Below, piece after piece: positions 1 to 4,949 of a DNA stretch of 33,098 bases. How positions within the stretch are numbered: the first letter of the stretch is position 1; the number at the start of each line of letters is the position of its first letter. Position numbers and translations under genes: made by a program. Origin of the DNA: Patescibacteria group bacterium (GTDB lineage: Bacteria; Patescibacteriota; Microgenomatia; UBA1400; PJMF01); the NCBI GenBank assembly GCA_049322655.1, contig JBMORP010000002.1, forward strand, positions 238,915 through 272,012. The letters run 5' to 3'. The notes below the pieces were generated by a model. That model had not been told where the DNA came from, made no database searches, and saw only the letters and a program-made list of their open reading frames with translations.

Positions 1-1215
1 GCTAGCCCAACGTTCTTCTCCGCCGAGGTATTTAGCTGGTTCATTGGGATCGTGGAGTGACAGCCTCACCTGCAAGTCAAAACCAAAAGCCCCGTAAAAC
101 TTCTCAACAATGTCCCAAACTGCATTAGCTTCATCTTTAACTTGATTGGGTCGACAAAAAACATGAGAGTCATCTTGAGTGATAGCTCTGACGCGTGATA
201 AGCCGTTCAATTCTCCGGTTTGCTCATCACGATAAACCATAGTGGTATTAGCATAACGTTGGGGCATTTCACGGTAACTCATCTGCTTACGAGCAAAGAT
301 TTGAGTGTGATGAGGACAATTCATCGGTTTCATCACAAATTCATGACCCTCCCGTGTCACCATCCTGAATAGTTCATCACCAAACTTATCCCAATGACCA
401 CTGGTTTGATAAAGATCTTTCTTGGTAATATGAGGGATCTCTACCTTTGAGTAACCACGGGCTTTTCGTAATGACCACACAAAATCATCAAGCAAGACTC
501 TCATTTGGGTGCCTTTTGGCGTCCAGAGTGGTAAACCAGGACCAACTAAATCAGAAAAAGTAAATAAATCTAAAGTTTTTCCTAATTTACGATGATCACG
601 TTTCTTAGCTTCTTCTAGTTTATTAATATAAACATCCAATTCAGTTTGGGAAGCAAAAGCTGTCCCATAGATTCTGGTCAGCATTTTATTCTTTTCATCT
701 CCTCGCCAATAAGCACCAGCCACACTCAAAAGTTTGAAAGCTTTGATTTCACCGATTTTTTCAACATGAGGGCCACTACAAAGATCAACAAAAGCTGATT
801 TAATTTCTACTCCACCAGTTTTTAAACTAACTTCATCGGCTTCAACTTGATCCTTAGTCCCAGTTAAATAAACCGTCACTGGTTGTTTATCACCTTCAAT
901 TTCATCTAACCATTCTTGTTTGAATGGATTATCAGCAAACAATTTTCTAGCTGTTGCTACAGACACTTCTACTCGCTTCATCAAAAAATTGAGTTGAATA
1001 AGCTTCTTCATTTGTTTTTCGATCTTGGGAAAATCAGCCTCACTAATTTTCAAATCACCGGTCACATCAAAATCAAAATAAAAACCCTCATCAGTAGCTG
1101 GCCCCATCGCCATGATCACTTTATCTTGGCTGTAAAGTTGGTGCATGGCCAAAGTCAAAACGTGTTCTGCTGAATGTCTCAGTTTCCATAATTGATCAGC
1201 TGATTTTTTATCCAT
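1..1215 (-). CDS. thrS: Threonine--tRNA ligase, 5' part (runs off left edge); lacks N-terminal TGS domain
   Basis: Not in ORF track. ATG at 1215 reads MDKKSADQLWKLRHSAEH...; editing motifs HSAEH and DLCSGPHV; YWRGDEKN, RDHRKLG, KPMNCPHH and GLSRVR are typical ThrRS motifs; frame open to position 1. Confidence 0.97.
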   Translation of the reverse strand, partial: MDKKSADQLWKLRHSAEHVLTLAMHQLYSQDKVIMAMGPATDEGFYFDFDVTGDLKISEADFPKIEKQMKKLIQLNFLMKRVEVSVATARKLFADNPFKQEWLDEIEGDKQPVTVYLTGTKDQVEADEVSLKTGGVEIKSAFVDLCSGPHVEKIGEIKAFKLLSVAGAYWRGDEKNKMLTRIYGTAFASQTELDVYINKLEEAKKRDHRKLGKTLDLFTFSDLVGPGLPLWTPKGTQMRVLLDDFVWSLRKARGYSKVEIPHITKKDLYQTSGHWDKFGDELFRMVTREGHEFVMKPMNCPHHTQIFARKQMSYREMPQRYANTTMVYRDEQTGELNGLSRVRAITQDDSHVFCRPNQVKDEANAVWDIVEKFYGAFGFDLQVRLSLHDPNEPAKYLGGEERWAS

Positions 1216-1282
1216 ATTTCCTTTTCTTCAAGTTGTTGTTGCAACTATGTTATTGTACTTGCTTTTAACTGTTTTTTGATAC

Positions 1283-1306
1283 TAAAAAACCCCTCTTGCA
1301 AGGGGT
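1283..1306 (-). terminator. Attenuator terminator (3:4 hairpin) of the thrS leader
   Basis: Minus strand ACCCCT-TGCAAG-AGGGGT followed by TTTTT, between the leader peptide and thrS. Confidence 0.85.
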
Positions 1307-1339
1307 GTCATGTCTTTTATCAGCCACACACAACACACC

Positions 1340-1390
1340 CTAGCCAAGGGTTGTAGTTGTGATGGTGGTAACAAAAGCACTAAGTATCAT
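1340..1390 (-). CDS. Thr-rich leader (attenuator) peptide, 16 aa MILSAFVTTITTTTLG
   Basis: ATG at 1390, TAG at 1340-1342; 6 Thr among 7 consecutive codons, directly upstream of thrS and followed by attenuator hairpins. Confidence 0.85.
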   Translation of the reverse strand: MILSAFVTTITTTTLG

Positions 1391-1398
1391 TACACGTG

Positions 1399-1426
1399 AT
1401 TATAACCCAACTTTTAAAAAAAACAA
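1399..1426 (-). promoter_or_regulatory. Putative sigma70 promoter of the leader-thrS transcript
   Basis: TTGTTT-16 nt-TATAAT (TATAAT at 1399-1404), 8 nt before the leader ATG. Confidence 0.55.
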
Positions 1427-1430
1427 AAAA

Positions 1431-2711
1431 CTAATTGGTTTTTTTTGAAAAGTCTAGATCTTGAAGCTCTAACATTTTAATTTGTTTTGGCTTTCTACGA
1501 CTATAGTAACCATCATAGTTCTTAACTCTTTTACTATCTTTGGCAAAAAGCGTGTGTAAATACCAACGCTCTTTAGTTACTTTACCAGCTTCGTCTTTCA
1601 AAAATAAAACCAAGCCATCTTTAGTTACTTTGAACTGAGGAGTTTTGGGATTAGACAAACTAAAACGATGGGCCACGGAGCCATCTTCCTCCTGACAAAT
1701 AATGCCAGAAATATCTTCTGGTGGCCGAGCTATTTCCTCACCTTTAACATTAACAAAAGTCTCTTTATCTGGAACAGCAAAAGCTTTATCAGGCTCCGCC
1801 ACTATAATTGGCTCACCATATTTACCCTTAATTACCTTGTAAAAAACTTCGATCCCTTCTGGAGCTAAGTTAACAATTTCATACTTATCTTCCCAAACTT
1901 TAAATGTCCATTGATTAACTTTGTACTCTGCTTTTGGCCGATTTTCTGGATCAAGTGCTTCAAATTTTCTTTTTAAACGCTTATGAAGTTGCTTGGCCAG
2001 TCTTTTTAAATCAGTACTATCTTTTAAAAGTTCTTGCCAAGACTCTGGTTTCTCTTGGTCAATAAATTCACCACTGGCAACAAAGTTAATATCTTGTAAT
2101 TCACTAACTTCAACTGTCGCAGGCTTTTCCAAAACATAATAAGCATCGTAGTTTTTAATTCTGTTTTTATCTTTAGAAAAAAGAGTTTTTAAGTACCACC
2201 TCTCACCGTTAATTAACAAACCATCCTCAGTCTGTTCAATTACCCGCTCACCCTTACCACTCAAACTAAAACGGTGAGCTACAGAACCATCTGCATTTTG
2301 GCAAATCACACCAGCAATCTTCATTTCTGGCTTAGCAATTTGTGTTCCTTTGACATCGGTAAAACTAACTCCTTCTGGTAAAGCAAACGCTAAGGTTGGT
2401 TCGGCTGTAATAATTGGTTCACCGTATTTACCATTTTCCATGGCATAAAAGCGATCAATGTCACCAGTCTCATCCGGGTTAGCCAACTTGTAATGATCAG
2501 CCTCAATCACTAGTTTCCATTGGTTAAACTGTGCTTCAAATTCTGGGGCTTGTTCTTGCTCTGGTTGGTGACGATTCTTCAATTTATCAATTGCAATTCG
2601 AGATAATAAATTCCAATTATCCTTGGGTTGATCTTGAATACTTTGCTCGATCTTTTGTTGCCACCAATCAGCTGAACTAATGTTTTTAGTAATATTTATA
2701 AATTTTTCCAT
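1431..2711 (-). CDS. Hypothetical protein made of two tandem copies of an unrecognised ~200-aa domain
   Basis: 426-aa ORF; GKYGEPII, ICQxxDGSVAHRFSLS, ERWYLxTLF and KNYDxYY each occur twice; TGgTATAAT upstream at 2743-2751. Confidence 0.85.
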   Translation of the reverse strand: MEKFINITKNISSADWWQQKIEQSIQDQPKDNWNLLSRIAIDKLKNRHQPEQEQAPEFEAQFNQWKLVIEADHYKLANPDETGDIDRFYAMENGKYGEPIITAEPTLAFALPEGVSFTDVKGTQIAKPEMKIAGVICQNADGSVAHRFSLSGKGERVIEQTEDGLLINGERWYLKTLFSKDKNRIKNYDAYYVLEKPATVEVSELQDINFVASGEFIDQEKPESWQELLKDSTDLKRLAKQLHKRLKRKFEALDPENRPKAEYKVNQWTFKVWEDKYEIVNLAPEGIEVFYKVIKGKYGEPIIVAEPDKAFAVPDKETFVNVKGEEIARPPEDISGIICQEEDGSVAHRFSLSNPKTPQFKVTKDGLVLFLKDEAGKVTKERWYLHTLFAKDSKRVKNYDGYYSRRKPKQIKMLELQDLDFSKKTN

Positions 2712-2759: not shown

Positions 2760-4715
2760 TTAGCCGGCTCCCCCACCGCCACCGCCACCGCCACCACCGC
2801 CACCTCCAGATGATCCGCCACTAGAACCAGTGCCACTGGCTCCAAAACTTTTAGTTGAAGAGGTTGTAAATGAGCCCAAAGCAGTATCCAAAGCACTAGA
2901 AAAACTAGCAAAAGAGGAAGAAAAACCATGAGTATGACTATGACCAACCCAAACAGCAGTAATTGTGGGATCATTGAGATCAAAACTAACTGGCAGCTGA
3001 GAAAGAGCTTTGGCAGAAACACCTAGCAAAGTACCGTAAACAAGATATTTTTCCCAAAGAATAACTGAATCAATTGGATACTCCTTTGTTTTGCGATAAT
3101 CCTTCATGTGTTTGGCAAAGGCCCGCCATAATGAAGCTTCTTTCAAGCCTTGGGCTGTATAGTTGAATTTAGTGGCAAAAATCCCCCAGAAAACTGTTAA
3201 AAATAACATTGGTTGAGCTAAACCAAACATAAAAATAAAAAGAGCAGCTGGAGTAAAGTACTCTCCGAGCCAAACCACTTGAAAAATTAGAACAGCTAAC
3301 GCAAGAACAAAAATCAGCACAATAGGTAAAATTTTCTTGAAAAAACTTGGCCCTTTTTTAGTATCAATCAGTCCCTGTTTTTTATTATTAGTAAAAGCCT
3401 TAGTTTCTAAAGCTTTAATTAGGTGATAACCACTTCTGGGATGGTTTTTACTATACTTAATTAAGTCCTTAAACCACAAAATATCATGTCCTTGGGCTGC
3501 TCGCTCGAATAAATAGTTAAAAACTAGTTTTTGCAACTCACTTGGTTGTTTATTGTTTTTAAGTTTTTGAAAACCATATTCATATTTTTTGAACAACAAA
3601 CCCTGCTTATCATCACTGCGAATAATCTTGGCAAATTTATCTTGAACTAAAGATAAGGCCGTAGCGATAAAGGCTTTGGTTGATAGACTCTTGCTGTGTT
3701 TGACTATTTGCTCAACTGAAGCTGGCTCTAAATTACTAGGTGGTTCCCAAAACCGATCAGCCTGGTTTGCTTTGTGAACTCTTTGTCTATCATTAAAAAA
3801 CCAGTTAAAAAATGACCACAAACCAACTATCCAAGCTAAAACTGCCAAACTGCTTTGAATTTTGCTAAAAATCTCATTTCTACCCAGCCACAATTTGGTT
3901 TCTTCAATAAATTTGTTTTCTTGTTTGTTGATCTTATCCCTAGAAAAAGTGCCTTTAGCTCCAGCAAAAAAGCTTGTTTTGGGTAGAATAATCCTAGCTT
4001 CGGTCATCTTTCCGGGGTTAACTCTTGGTACGGTAATTTGCACTGTTTTTTCATCTACAATTGTAATTGTGCCACTGAGTTCACCATGCAACCAAGCCTG
4101 AATTTCGTCACCTTTAATTCCAGCTGGTAAAGTCAGATTAACCAAAACATTTTTTTGAGCAACTTCCCATTCGTTACCAATAAATTGCCAATAAAGTTCA
4201 GCTACATCATCATGTAAAGTCACGGCATTATCGACTAAATAGTTAACTGTAAAAACTTTGGTCTTATCAATTGCTGAGTAGTGCCATTGCAAATAGACTT
4301 CTTTTTCGTCTTGAAAAGTAGTAAAAGTCCCAGCAGGGTTACTCCTTCGATCTTCGAAGTTAATTTTATCGGGATCAATAAATCGATAACAATTTTGTTC
4401 ATCACAAATACTTTTAATTCTGACTTGATAAGGCTCTGTTCTGCCTGGGTTAGTTGTTTGCTGGGGTTGTTTGTTGATTCGCTGATAAGCAAACCGGAAA
4501 TCCCCAGAAAAAACATAGGTACGTTGTTCACTGACCTCCATTGAACCATCTGGGTTAATTTTGGCGTTAATTTGAACAGCTTGAATTTGGTATTCCCTGT
4601 CCTCAGCAGCCTGAGTTTTAGTAGGACAAATTAAAGAAAAAAGAGTAAAAAATAACAACCAAACCATTTGTAAACTAATCATCCTTTTGAAAGTATTCAC
4701 TTTTGTTAATTTCAT
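2760..4715 (-). CDS. DUF2207-family membrane protein
   Basis: N-terminal signal, INPDGSMEVSEQRTY, ELYWQFIG, TM helices, WEKYLVYGTLLGV and a Gly-rich C-terminus. Start is likely ATG 4715 or 4682, because the 4838 start overlaps the L10 leader. Confidence 0.88.
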   Translation of the reverse strand: MKLTKVNTFKRMISLQMVWLLFFTLFSLICPTKTQAAEDREYQIQAVQINAKINPDGSMEVSEQRTYVFSGDFRFAYQRINKQPQQTTNPGRTEPYQVRIKSICDEQNCYRFIDPDKINFEDRRSNPAGTFTTFQDEKEVYLQWHYSAIDKTKVFTVNYLVDNAVTLHDDVAELYWQFIGNEWEVAQKNVLVNLTLPAGIKGDEIQAWLHGELSGTITIVDEKTVQITVPRVNPGKMTEARIILPKTSFFAGAKGTFSRDKINKQENKFIEETKLWLGRNEIFSKIQSSLAVLAWIVGLWSFFNWFFNDRQRVHKANQADRFWEPPSNLEPASVEQIVKHSKSLSTKAFIATALSLVQDKFAKIIRSDDKQGLLFKKYEYGFQKLKNNKQPSELQKLVFNYLFERAAQGHDILWFKDLIKYSKNHPRSGYHLIKALETKAFTNNKKQGLIDTKKGPSFFKKILPIVLIFVLALAVLIFQVVWLGEYFTPAALFIFMFGLAQPMLFLTVFWGIFATKFNYTAQGLKEASLWRAFAKHMKDYRKTKEYPIDSVILWEKYLVYGTLLGVSAKALSQLPVSFDLNDPTITAVWVGHSHTHGFSSSFASFSSALDTALGSFTTSSTKSFGASGTGSSGGSSGGGGGGGGGGGGGAG

Positions 4716-4723
4716 GATATAAT
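4715..4723 (+). promoter_or_regulatory. Extended -10 promoter of rplJL
   Basis: TGaTATAAT just 5' of the L10 leader. Confidence 0.6.
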
Positions 4724-4733
4724 TTTGTTTCTG

Positions 4734-4824
4734 TTTCCTAAGACAGTGTGTCCAACTACAAGTTGGTGAAATGTCACACCGAGGAGAGATGCTTAAAATA
4801 CCGTCCGCTTTGTTGGACTTTTTT
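4734..4824 (+). promoter_or_regulatory. L10 leader (ribosomal protein L10(L12)4 autoregulatory RNA) with downstream terminator-like hairpin
   Basis: CCTAAGACAG-TGTG...CACA-CCGAGG core matches the L10-leader pattern; upstream of rplJ; GTCCG...TGGAC plus T6 at 4803-4824. Confidence 0.75.
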
Positions 4825-4949
4825 ACCTCTTTTCTCATTCTACATTTCTTTCACTGCATAAGAAACCGCACCTTAAAAGGCTTGTGGTGAAATAAAACTT
4901 ATTTCCCTACAAGAAAGAAAATTATTAAGTAGTAGAAGGTATTCGCTGT

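What the first reader, a model, noticed from the sequence alone, without database searches (positions are those of the whole stretch)
1283..1404. Ribosome-mediated Thr attenuator controlling thrS
Seen in sequence: a 16-aa leader MILSAFVTTITTTTLG with 6 Thr in 7 codons. Its coding region forms a long 1:2 hairpin (CUUUUGUUA/UGAUAAAAG, CCAC/GUGG, CACAAC/GUUGUG, ACCCU/AGGGU). Segment 2 (GGGUGU) can alternatively pair with ACACCC in the terminator 5' arm (2:3 antiterminator), and a 3:4 terminator with a U-tract follows. Established: this is the thrL/pheM attenuator logic, whereas thrS is controlled by translational autorepression in E. coli and by a T-box in Firmicutes. Inference: a probably auxotrophic CPR cell senses Thr-tRNA charging to tune ThrRS. 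The -10 box lies only 8 nt before the leader ATG, suggesting near-leaderless translation.
Basis: partly seen in the sequence, partly recalled or inferred. Interest (0 to 1): 0.82.

Follow-up and report, generated by a model that had tools for sequence, protein, structure and literature searches.

The report
Leaderless threonine attenuator before thrS
A tiny threonine-rich reading frame with switchable RNA hairpins and a transcription stop signal sits in front of the threonyl-tRNA synthetase gene of this ultra-small bacterium and most of its family, and very probably raises synthetase transcription when charged threonine tRNA runs short.

Summary
On the minus strand a TATAAT box (1404-1399) lies 8 nt before a 16-codon ORF (1390-1340) with 6 Thr in 7 codons. 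A long hairpin, an alternative antiterminator, a terminator (1306-1289) with a T-run, and thrS (ATG 1215) follow.

A Thr-rich ORF with a terminator stands before thrS in 4 of 4 genomes of the genus, 95 of 125 of the rest of the family, 3 of 19 and 4 of 56 in wider kin, and 0 of 78 outside.

Masking a ribosome on the Thr codons flips the predicted fold to the antiterminator in 90 of 106 loci, against 183 of 3180 shuffled controls. A ribosome at the stop codon gives the terminator in 104 of 106.

The leader looks leaderless: 95 of 106 have a -10 box 4-13 nt before the start, and 1 of 106 has a Shine-Dalgarno motif.

Caveats: there is no RNA data, a conserved second -10 box lies between terminator and thrS, and alignment-based covariation is weak.

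The mechanism is classical. Leaderless leaders before synthetase genes are reported in Streptomyces. I found no paper on this in Patescibacteria. This scan had already noted the same device on other Patescibacteria and DPANN DNA.

The parts
1399..1404 (-). -10 box (TATAAT) of the leader promoter P1, 8 nt before the leader ATG
   Evidence: Read. A -10-like hexamer ends 4-13 nt (mode 7-8) before the leader start in 95 of 106 loci, against 7 of 106 random ATGs. The two-hexamer promoter scan did not list it, because no -35 passed its rule.
1340..1390 (-). Leader ORF of 16 codons plus TAG. No Shine-Dalgarno motif, so presumably translated from a leaderless transcript.
   Evidence: An SD-like 4-mer stands before 1 of 106 leader starts and 67 of 106 thrS starts.
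1349..1369 (-). Regulatory Thr codon run (6 Thr in 7 codons)
   Evidence: Thr runs are conserved in relatives. 87% of the run codons across 106 loci are ACC or ACT.
1310..1380 (-). 1:2 hairpin: the leader coding region, Thr codons included, pairs with the G/U-rich stretch after the stop codon
   Evidence: Minimum-free-energy fold. The same helix is predicted by RNAalifold on 7 close relatives.
1291..1350 (-). Alternative 2:3 antiterminator: 1350-1328 pairs with 1313-1291 and takes up the terminator's 5' arm
   Evidence: Constrained folds with a ribosome masked on codons 5-11 or on Thr codons 8-13.
1283..1306 (-). Intrinsic terminator: 7-bp stem with a 4-nt loop (1306-1289), then a run of T
1252..1257 (-). 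Candidate second promoter P2 (-10-like TACAAT) between terminator and thrS
   Evidence: A -10-like hexamer lies in this spacer in 95 of 106 loci, against 1338 of 2120 shuffles. Most lie 10-30 nt before the thrS start.
1..1215 (-). thrS (threonine--tRNA ligase). ATG at 1215-1213, Shine-Dalgarno-like AAGGA at 1223-1219. The gene runs off the window start and is 605-606 aa in the genome.
   Evidence: TIGR00418, 651 bits against a cut-off of 383.65.

Best explanation
This is a ribosome-mediated (leader-peptide) transcription attenuator that senses charged tRNA-Thr and tunes transcription into thrS.

Transcription starts at or next to the leader ATG, from the -10 box 8 nt upstream. A ribosome is presumed to load on the 5'-terminal AUG without a Shine-Dalgarno sequence.

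- **Thr-tRNA plentiful.** The ribosome runs to the TAG. The stop codon sits at the top of the 1:2 hairpin and directly at the G-rich antiterminator strand. The ribosome covers that strand, the 3:4 terminator forms, and transcription stops at the T-run.
- **Thr-tRNA scarce.** The ribosome stalls in the ACC/ACA/ACT run and holds segment 1. The freed segment 2 (1350-1328) pairs with the terminator's 5' arm (1313-1291), and RNA polymerase reads on into thrS.
- **No translation.** The 1:2 hairpin and the terminator both form, and transcription stops.

A conserved -10-like box after the terminator probably gives thrS a basal promoter, so the attenuator would add inducible read-through on top of it.

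Shown here: the sequence features, their conservation, and the predicted position-dependent fold switch. Inferred: the transcription start, leaderless translation, coupling of transcription and translation, stalling, and the actual read-through.
For: 1. **Anatomy in the window.** The parts are in place. The fold has z = -4.37.

2. **Uniqueness in the genome.** This is the only intergenic Thr-rich small ORF. It is one of 7 hits for the architecture '-10 box, short ORF, terminator, downstream gene'.

3. **Conservation tied to thrS.** A small ORF with at least 4 Thr in 7 residues and a terminator within 75 nt of its stop is found in:
   - 4 of 4 evaluable genomes of the genus;
   - 95 of 125 of the rest of the family (73 with at least 5 Thr);
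   - 3 of 19 other families of the order;
   - 4 of 56 other orders of the class;
   - 0 of 78 thrS loci from other Patescibacteria and Bacteroidota.

   By my hand tally, about 41 of 54 evaluable genera of the family have it.

4. **Switch test on 106 loci.**
   - With a ribosome on the second Thr codon, the fold shows the antiterminator instead of the terminator in 90 of 106 loci.
   - With the spacer shuffled, this happens in 183 of 3180 trials.
   - With a ribosome at the stop codon, the terminator forms in 104 of 106.

5. **Co-variation of the partners.** There are 87 distinct terminator hairpins among the 106 loci. The switch occurs with the cognate terminator in 90 of 106, and with a swapped-in foreign terminator in 319 of 1054.

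6. **Leaderless design.** See the figures under parts.

7. **Not just the upstream gene's terminator.** In 12 of 106 loci the upstream gene is on the other strand. It is on the same strand in 62, unclear in 29, and the flank is too short in 3.

8. **The same design recurs in this genome.** It stands before a HisC-like aminotransferase, with His codons, and that leader is conserved in 13 of 18 orthologous loci.

9. **The logic fits.** thrC and homoserine dehydrogenase were not found, so charging depends on imported Thr and on ThrRS level.
Against: - **No expression data.** No RNA run holds the locus. The start site, the 3' end and read-through are all untested.
- **A second promoter is likely.** A -10-like box lies between terminator and thrS in 95 of 106 loci, where 63% is expected from shuffles, and most lie 10-30 nt before the thrS start. 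thrS may therefore be transcribed largely from its own promoter, which would make the attenuator's contribution smaller than in classical operons.
- **The promoter scan missed both boxes.** The two-hexamer scan did not list P1 or P2.
- **Alignment-based covariation is weak.**
  - RNAalifold predicted 0 pairs on the 97-sequence MAFFT alignment, whose columns are not in structural register.
  - On 7 close relatives it predicted 16 pairs, only 2 of them with compensatory changes.
- **The switch test is not universal.** 16 of 106 loci do not switch at the second Thr codon, and in 24 of 106 the unconstrained fold lacks the terminator.
- **Limits of the method.** The folds are thermodynamic, not kinetic. 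Related genomes are not independent samples.
- **The device is dispensable.** 30 of 125 evaluable family genomes outside the genus lack it. Some of these have thrS close behind another gene.
Confidence: 0.8

Rival explanations
1. The leader, hairpins and terminator form a self-contained small transcription unit (a small peptide or small RNA gene, or a leftover). thrS is expressed essentially from the downstream promoter P2, so read-through contributes little to ThrRS level.
For: A -10-like box between terminator and thrS is enriched (95 of 106 loci, against 1338 of 2120 shuffles) and lies 10-30 nt before thrS. The terminators look strong. Attenuator-derived RNAs and peptides that act in trans are reported in Sinorhizobium (PMC6614838 and PMC7298713, search listings and abstracts only).
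Against: The unit is found before thrS and nowhere else in this genome. Outside the Thr run the peptide is poorly conserved, while the Thr codons and the switchable pairing are kept. An antiterminator that depends on ribosome position has no role in a free-standing gene. In 14 of 106 loci the terminator lies 45 nt or less from thrS.
Confidence: 0.1
2. The hairpin with its T-run is simply the terminator of the upstream 426-aa gene (1431-2711), and the Thr-rich ORF is a chance reading frame.
For: The upstream gene is on the same strand and has no other terminator before 1306. The upstream ORF is on the same strand in 62 of 106 loci.
Against: Thr-rich ORFs are very rare: 4 in the whole genome in six frames, 0 of 78 with a terminator (one Thr-rich ORF without one) before thrS outside the class. 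The ORF has its own -10 box. In 12 loci the upstream gene is divergent. The device follows thrS across about 41 genera.
Confidence: 0.02
3. Control is translational, or acts through a trans factor. Examples: a stalled ribosome unmasking the thrS ribosome-binding site as in the mycobacterial Cys short ORFs, ThrRS binding a tRNA-like operator as in E. coli, or a T-box-like contact with tRNA.
For: Leaderless Cys short ORFs in mycobacteria act by freeing a sequestered ribosome-binding site (bioRxiv 10.1101/834739, abstract read). This genome does hold a T-box-like element elsewhere.
Against: The thrS start lies 18-360 nt (median 71) beyond the terminator and outside the switching helices. Every locus counted has a canonical terminator with a T-run, by the selection rule. 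No Rfam family, T-box included, matches 1000-1700 better than E = 0.5, and none reaches its gathering score.
Confidence: 0.04

Closest known systems
E. coli pheM-pheST attenuator (leader peptide controlling an aminoacyl-tRNA synthetase operon); recalled knowledge, not tested against sequence here
   Same: A short leader ORF rich in the cognate codons, with terminator and antiterminator alternatives, controls transcription of the synthetase for that amino acid.
   Different: A different amino acid and gene. The E. coli leader is not leaderless. There is no sequence relation: the Rfam Phe_leader model scores 16.2 bits against a gathering score of 55, E = 7.4.
E. coli thrL-thrABC attenuator (Rfam Thr_leader, RF00506)
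   Same: A Thr-codon run in a leader peptide, the same 1:2 / 2:3 / 3:4 logic, and the same signal (charged tRNA-Thr).
   Different: It controls Thr biosynthesis, not thrS, and also carries Ile codons for multivalent control. The model gives no match in 1000-1700 at E up to 10. This genome has no thrC or hom.
Leaderless leader peptides of Streptomyces lividans TK24, including 'thrL' before thrS (PMC8079986, passages of the section on 5'-UTR cis-regulatory elements read)
   Same: A leaderless short ORF before thrS (and before alaS, trpS and leuS), read there as an amino-acid-dependent attenuator.
   Different: The Streptomyces thrL has only 2 Thr, and its authors found no clear Rho-independent terminator. 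Here there are 4-11 Thr codons, a canonical terminator and a predicted antiterminator, conserved across a family of another phylum.
Polycysteine leaderless short ORFs of mycobacteria (bioRxiv 10.1101/834739, abstract read)
   Same: A leaderless sensory short ORF with a run of one codon type; ribosome stalling remodels the downstream RNA.
   Different: [quoted passage not shown] This one has an intrinsic terminator and a distant thrS start.
T-box riboswitch before thrS in Firmicutes (Rfam RF00230)
   Same: The same regulated gene, the same physiological signal (uncharged versus charged tRNA-Thr), and the same output (terminator versus antiterminator).
   Different: It senses tRNA directly, without translation. 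There is no T-box match at this locus. The genome does have a T-box-like element before its GlyRS gene.

Membership tests
Leader-peptide (ribosome-mediated) transcription attenuators | Short ORF upstream of the regulated gene, enriched in codons of the cognate amino acid | tested here: met
   6 Thr in 7 codons. This is the only intergenic Thr-rich small ORF in the genome. It is conserved in relatives.
Leader-peptide (ribosome-mediated) transcription attenuators | Intrinsic terminator between leader ORF and regulated gene | tested here: met
   Terminator at 1306-1289 with a T-run. In 16 of 17 relatives' candidates a terminator starts 23-42 nt after the stop.
Leader-peptide (ribosome-mediated) transcription attenuators | Mutually exclusive antiterminator whose formation depends on where the ribosome sits | tested here: met
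   In silico only. The switch occurs in 90 of 106 loci against 183 of 3180 shuffles. The terminator forms with a ribosome at the stop in 104 of 106. The window itself is shown.
Leader-peptide (ribosome-mediated) transcription attenuators | The leader is translated, and read-through rises when the cognate charged tRNA is scarce | not testable with these tools
   No RNA run is listed for the locus. Reporter or Term-seq experiments are needed.
Rfam Thr_leader (RF00506) | Match to the covariance model at or above the gathering score | tested here: not met
   No match at E up to 10 in 1000-1700.
Rfam Phe_leader (RF01859) | Match to the covariance model at or above the gathering score (55 bits) | tested here: not met
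   16.2 bits, E = 7.4.
T-box riboswitch (RF00230) | Specifier loop and conserved T-box sequence; model match | tested here: not met
   No T-box match in 1000-1700 at E up to 10. No match over the gathering score in 20 thrS loci of relatives that lack the leader.
Leaderless sensory short ORFs (actinobacterial type) | Transcript begins at the start codon: -10 box about 7 nt upstream and no Shine-Dalgarno motif | tested here: met
   Sequence-level only. The spacing is 8 nt here. A -10 box stands at 4-13 nt in 95 of 106 loci, and 1 of 106 has an SD-like motif.
Leaderless sensory short ORFs (actinobacterial type) | Mapped transcription start at the AUG/GUG | not testable with these tools
   No RNA data.
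E. coli-type thrS operator (translational autorepression by ThrRS) | tRNA-Thr anticodon-arm mimics next to the thrS ribosome-binding site | not tested
   No dedicated search was run. The switching helices lie upstream of the terminator, 73 nt from the thrS start.

The most novel reading that the evidence does not exclude
Leaderless leader-peptide attenuation may be a general amino-acid-sensing regulon in this Patescibacteria family. It would cover at least thrS (Thr) and a HisC-like aminotransferase whose conserved leader carries His, Trp and Tyr codons. That would mean these ultra-small cells, which have few regulators, rely on ribosomes loading at the first transcribed nucleotide and staying coupled to RNA polymerase. 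The device may be old and shared with other Patescibacteria lineages and DPANN archaea, as other notes of this scan suggest, rather than a recent family invention.
Probability: 0.4. Interest if true: 0.65.

Novelty: new member of a known kind. Interest (0 to 1): 0.5.

Why it matters
Almost nothing is known about gene regulation in Patescibacteria, most of which cannot be grown alone.

A cis-acting device that can be read from sequence gives a testable handle on how these amino-acid auxotrophs sense supply from their hosts. It is kept in about three quarters of a family of 140 genomes. It has a clear signal (charged tRNA-Thr) and a clear output (ThrRS).

It also predicts two features of their basic biology. 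Leaderless translation should be efficient. Transcription and translation should be coupled from the first nucleotide.

For annotation, it marks more than 100 unannotated small ORFs as leaders rather than as hypothetical proteins.

Tried and rejected
- **Rfam search of 1000-1700 at E up to 10.** Only chance-level matches.
- **Rfam at gathering scores on 20 thrS loci of relatives without the leader.** Only tRNA genes, no T-box.
- **RNA evidence.** No RNA holder is listed for the locus.
- **RNAalifold on the 97-sequence MAFFT alignment.** It predicted 0 pairs. Column-wise pairing and mapped per-sequence folds showed that the alignment is not in structural register. I therefore built no covariance model and made no count of structure pairs.
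- **RNAalifold on 7 close relatives.** It recovers the 1:2 helix and the terminator, but with only 2 compensatory pairs.
- **Other single-residue-rich leaders in the own genome (at least 5 of 7 residues).** None besides the Thr leader.
- **A candidate Trp leader before trpB.** It shows no predicted switch, so I left it as weak.
- **Vibrio fischeri paper PMC2330054.** Its two passages that mention thrS have nothing to do with a leader.
- **Searches for prior description.**
  - thrS, leader peptide and attenuation.
  - Leader peptide or attenuation together with the Patescibacteria, CPR or Microgenomates names.
  - aaRS, leader peptide, leaderless, attenuator and threonine.
  - thrS and leader peptide.
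  - Leaderless together with the CPR names.

  None showed a description of this device in Patescibacteria. Subscription journals and supplementary files were not searchable.

Full report
**What is in the window**

All features lie on the minus strand.
- The upstream 426-aa gene ends at 1431.
- TATAAT lies at 1404-1399. Eight bases later an ATG (1390) opens a 16-codon frame, MILSAFVTTITTTTLG, which ends at TAG 1342-1340.
- Six of seven consecutive codons (1369-1349) are Thr.
- There is no Shine-Dalgarno motif before this ATG.
- thrS begins at 1215, behind an AAGGA motif. The full gene matches TIGR00418 (thrS) at 651 bits against a cut-off of 383.65. Pfam finds the class II core and the tRNA_SAD domain.

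**Folding**

The minimum-free-energy fold of 1404-1270 has a long hairpin between the leader coding region and the G/U-rich stretch after the stop codon, plus a separate terminator hairpin.
- The energy is -47.2 kcal/mol. Shuffles average -30.4 (sd 3.85), giving z = -4.37. None of 200 shuffles folds as well.
- The terminator scan lists ACCCCTTGCAAGAGGGGT at 1306-1289 followed by a T-run.
- When about 28 nt are held unpaired as a ribosome on codons 5-11, the best fold pairs 1350-1328 with 1313-1291. This consumes the terminator's 5' arm.
- With the ribosome on the last Thr codon or on the stop codon, the terminator returns.

**Chance**

In six frames of the whole 929-kb genome, 4 ORFs of 8-40 aa have at least 5 Thr in 7 residues.
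- Only this one lies outside long ORFs.
- Among all intergenic small ORFs rich in a single residue, it is the only ATG-started one with a terminator and a downstream gene.
- No Rfam family matches the region. The best leader-type hit is Phe_leader at 16.2 bits against 55, E = 7.4.

**Relatives: sampling**

I located thrS in several sets of genomes.
- *Closest relatives:* 40 genomes.
- *Family:*
  - All 140 genomes, 57 genera. 135 have a match to the ThrRS N-terminus.
  - One unpublished genome was not fetched.
- *Class:*
  - 251 genomes sampled; 189 have a match.
  - I fetched 60, picked by hand to spread over families. I took the better matches first, which is a selection bias.
  - One unpublished genome was skipped.
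- *Named records:* 80 from the genome collection, other Patescibacteria and Bacteroidota by their titles.

**Relatives: result**

The rule was a small ORF of 8-45 aa with at least 4 Thr in 7 residues and a terminator within 75 nt of its stop, in at least 300 nt of upstream sequence.

| Group | Loci with the device | Too short to judge |
|---|---|---|
| Own genus | 4 of 4 | 1 |
| Other genera of the family | 95 of 125 (73 with at least 5 Thr) | 5 |
| Other families of the order | 3 of 19 | 1 |
| Other orders of the class | 4 of 56 | 0 |
| Named outside records | 0 of 78 | 1 |

- In the outside set, L042 was dropped because it is the same contig as L131.
- A hand tally over searches gives about 41 of 54 evaluable genera in the family.
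- Family members without the device either have thrS close behind another gene or carry degenerate remnants.
- A 97-sequence alignment shows a common plan: a -10 box, about 8 nt, ATG, a run of ACC/ACT codons, a CCC...TA(G/A)...GGG turn, a G/U-rich stretch, a C-rich arm, a G-rich arm and a T-run. It was built from the 106 loci, less 4 with identical peptides and 5 that I judged weak.

**Is the switch conserved?**

For each of the 106 loci I folded the RNA from the leader start to the end of the terminator.
- With a ribosome on the second Thr codon of the run, the terminator is lost and its 5' arm pairs upstream in 90 of 106.
- When the spacer is shuffled (30 shuffles per locus), this happens in 183 of 3180 trials.
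- With the ribosome at the stop codon, the terminator forms in 104 of 106.
- With no ribosome, it forms in 82 of 106.
- The terminators differ (87 distinct hairpins). Putting a foreign terminator behind a leader lowers the switch rate from 90 of 106 to 319 of 1054.

Formal alignment-based covariation was not obtained.
- RNAalifold predicted nothing on the 97-sequence MAFFT alignment, which is out of structural register.
- On 7 close relatives it recovered the 1:2 helix and the terminator, with 2 compensatory pairs of 16.

**Leaderless start**

- A -10-like hexamer (TATAAT 48, TATACT 22, TACAAT 12, others 13) ends 4-13 nt before a leader start codon in 95 of 106 loci. The most common spacing is 7-8 nt.
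- The same test on random ATGs in the same regions gives 7 of 106.
- A Shine-Dalgarno-like 4-mer precedes 1 of 106 leader starts and 67 of 106 thrS starts.
- This places the transcription start at or next to the start codon. That is an inference; no 5' ends are available.
- The two-hexamer promoter scan did not list the site.

**A second promoter**

- The TACAAT at 1257-1252 is not an isolated oddity. A -10-like hexamer lies between terminator and thrS in 95 of 106 loci, against 1338 of 2120 shuffled spacers.
- Most sit 10-30 nt before the thrS start, even where the spacer is only 31-45 nt long.
- thrS therefore probably has a basal promoter of its own. The attenuator would then add read-through from P1 when Thr-tRNA is short.
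- How much each contributes cannot be told from sequence.

**Context**

- The genome has tRNA-Thr genes with anticodons TGT, GGT and CGT. 87% of the leader Thr codons over the 106 loci are ACC or ACT.
- thrC (best 26.7 bits against a cut-off of 167.1, and that match lies on trpB) and homoserine dehydrogenase were not found in this 96%-complete genome. This fits dependence on imported threonine.
- The upstream gene is on the opposite strand in 12 of 106 loci, so the terminator is not merely the end of a preceding gene.

**Comparison with what is known**

The logic is that of the classical leader-peptide attenuators.
- *Closest functional parallel:* the E. coli pheM-pheST attenuator, a synthetase operon under a leader peptide (recalled, not tested against sequence here).
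- *Histidine leader:* one before hisS paralogues in bacilli is described in PMC2965389 (passages read).
- *Streptomyces lividans:* leaderless leader peptides before alaS, thrS, trpS and leuS were reported from RNA-seq (PMC8079986, passages read). Its thrL has two Thr and no clear terminator.
- *Mycobacteria:* leaderless polycysteine short ORFs act translationally (bioRxiv 10.1101/834739, abstract read).
- *Patescibacteria:* I found no paper describing such a device there. Supplements and subscription journals could not be seen.

**Earlier notes of this scan**

These are AI notes and unchecked.
- They report the same kind of Thr leader before thrS in several other Patescibacteria genomes and in DPANN archaea.
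- One note concerns a look-alike stretch.
- They suggest a wider spread than my class sample shows. I did not test them.

**Verdict**

This is a well-supported ribosome-mediated Thr attenuator before thrS, leaderless by its sequence features and conserved across a Patescibacteria family. It is a new member of a known kind. The mechanistic steps beyond sequence and predicted folding remain inferred.

Noticed in passing
L292:2566-2725 (-), which is G000:C6 about 220994-221153: A second leaderless attenuator in the same genome. TATAAT lies 8 nt before a 21-codon ORF (MLLANTHHHAWYYTQKGGVCF). A terminator follows, and 22 nt later comes a HisC-like aminotransferase (TIGR01141, 258 bits against a cut-off of 276.55). 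Masking a ribosome on the His codons flips the fold to an antiterminator. A leader with the conserved pattern HH.AWYY and a terminator precedes the orthologue in 13 of 18 loci. It may sense His and aromatic amino acids.
   Followed up: partly
G000:C6:99905-100162 (-): A T-box-like element (RF00230, 30.8 bits against a gathering score of 93, E = 1.7e-5). It contains the AGGGTGGAACCGCC motif and a terminator just before a glycyl-tRNA synthetase gene. The genome thus seems to use both a T-box (glyS) and a leader peptide (thrS).
   Followed up: partly
G000:C6 about 474076-474370 (-): A 15-codon ORF with one Trp codon behind a -10-like box, followed by a terminator and then trpB (408 aa). No ribosome-dependent switch is predicted. 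It is a weak candidate for a Trp leader.
   Followed up: partly
window 1252-1257 (-), and the same spacer in L003-L006 and others: A conserved AAGTACAAT-type -10-like box between the attenuator terminator and thrS, seen in several genera. The motif AGTA[C/T/A]AAT occurs in 26 of 106 loci. It is probably a basal thrS promoter.
   Followed up: partly
window 1431-2711 (-): The upstream 426-aa protein has no Pfam match. In its translation it shows two similar halves, each with a GKYGEPII...AEP...DGSVAHRFSLS stretch. It looks like an internal duplication of unknown function.
   Followed up: no
L024:1341-1414 and L025, L021, L027, L012, L014, L023: In 7 of the 20 leader-less thrS loci scanned (6 from other families of the order), a tRNA gene lies in the locus, in L024 just before thrS. 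Its anticodon was not determined.
   Followed up: no
window 2760-4838 (-): A 692-aa predicted membrane protein ends in a run of 13 glycines within a Gly/Ser-rich tail.
   Followed up: no
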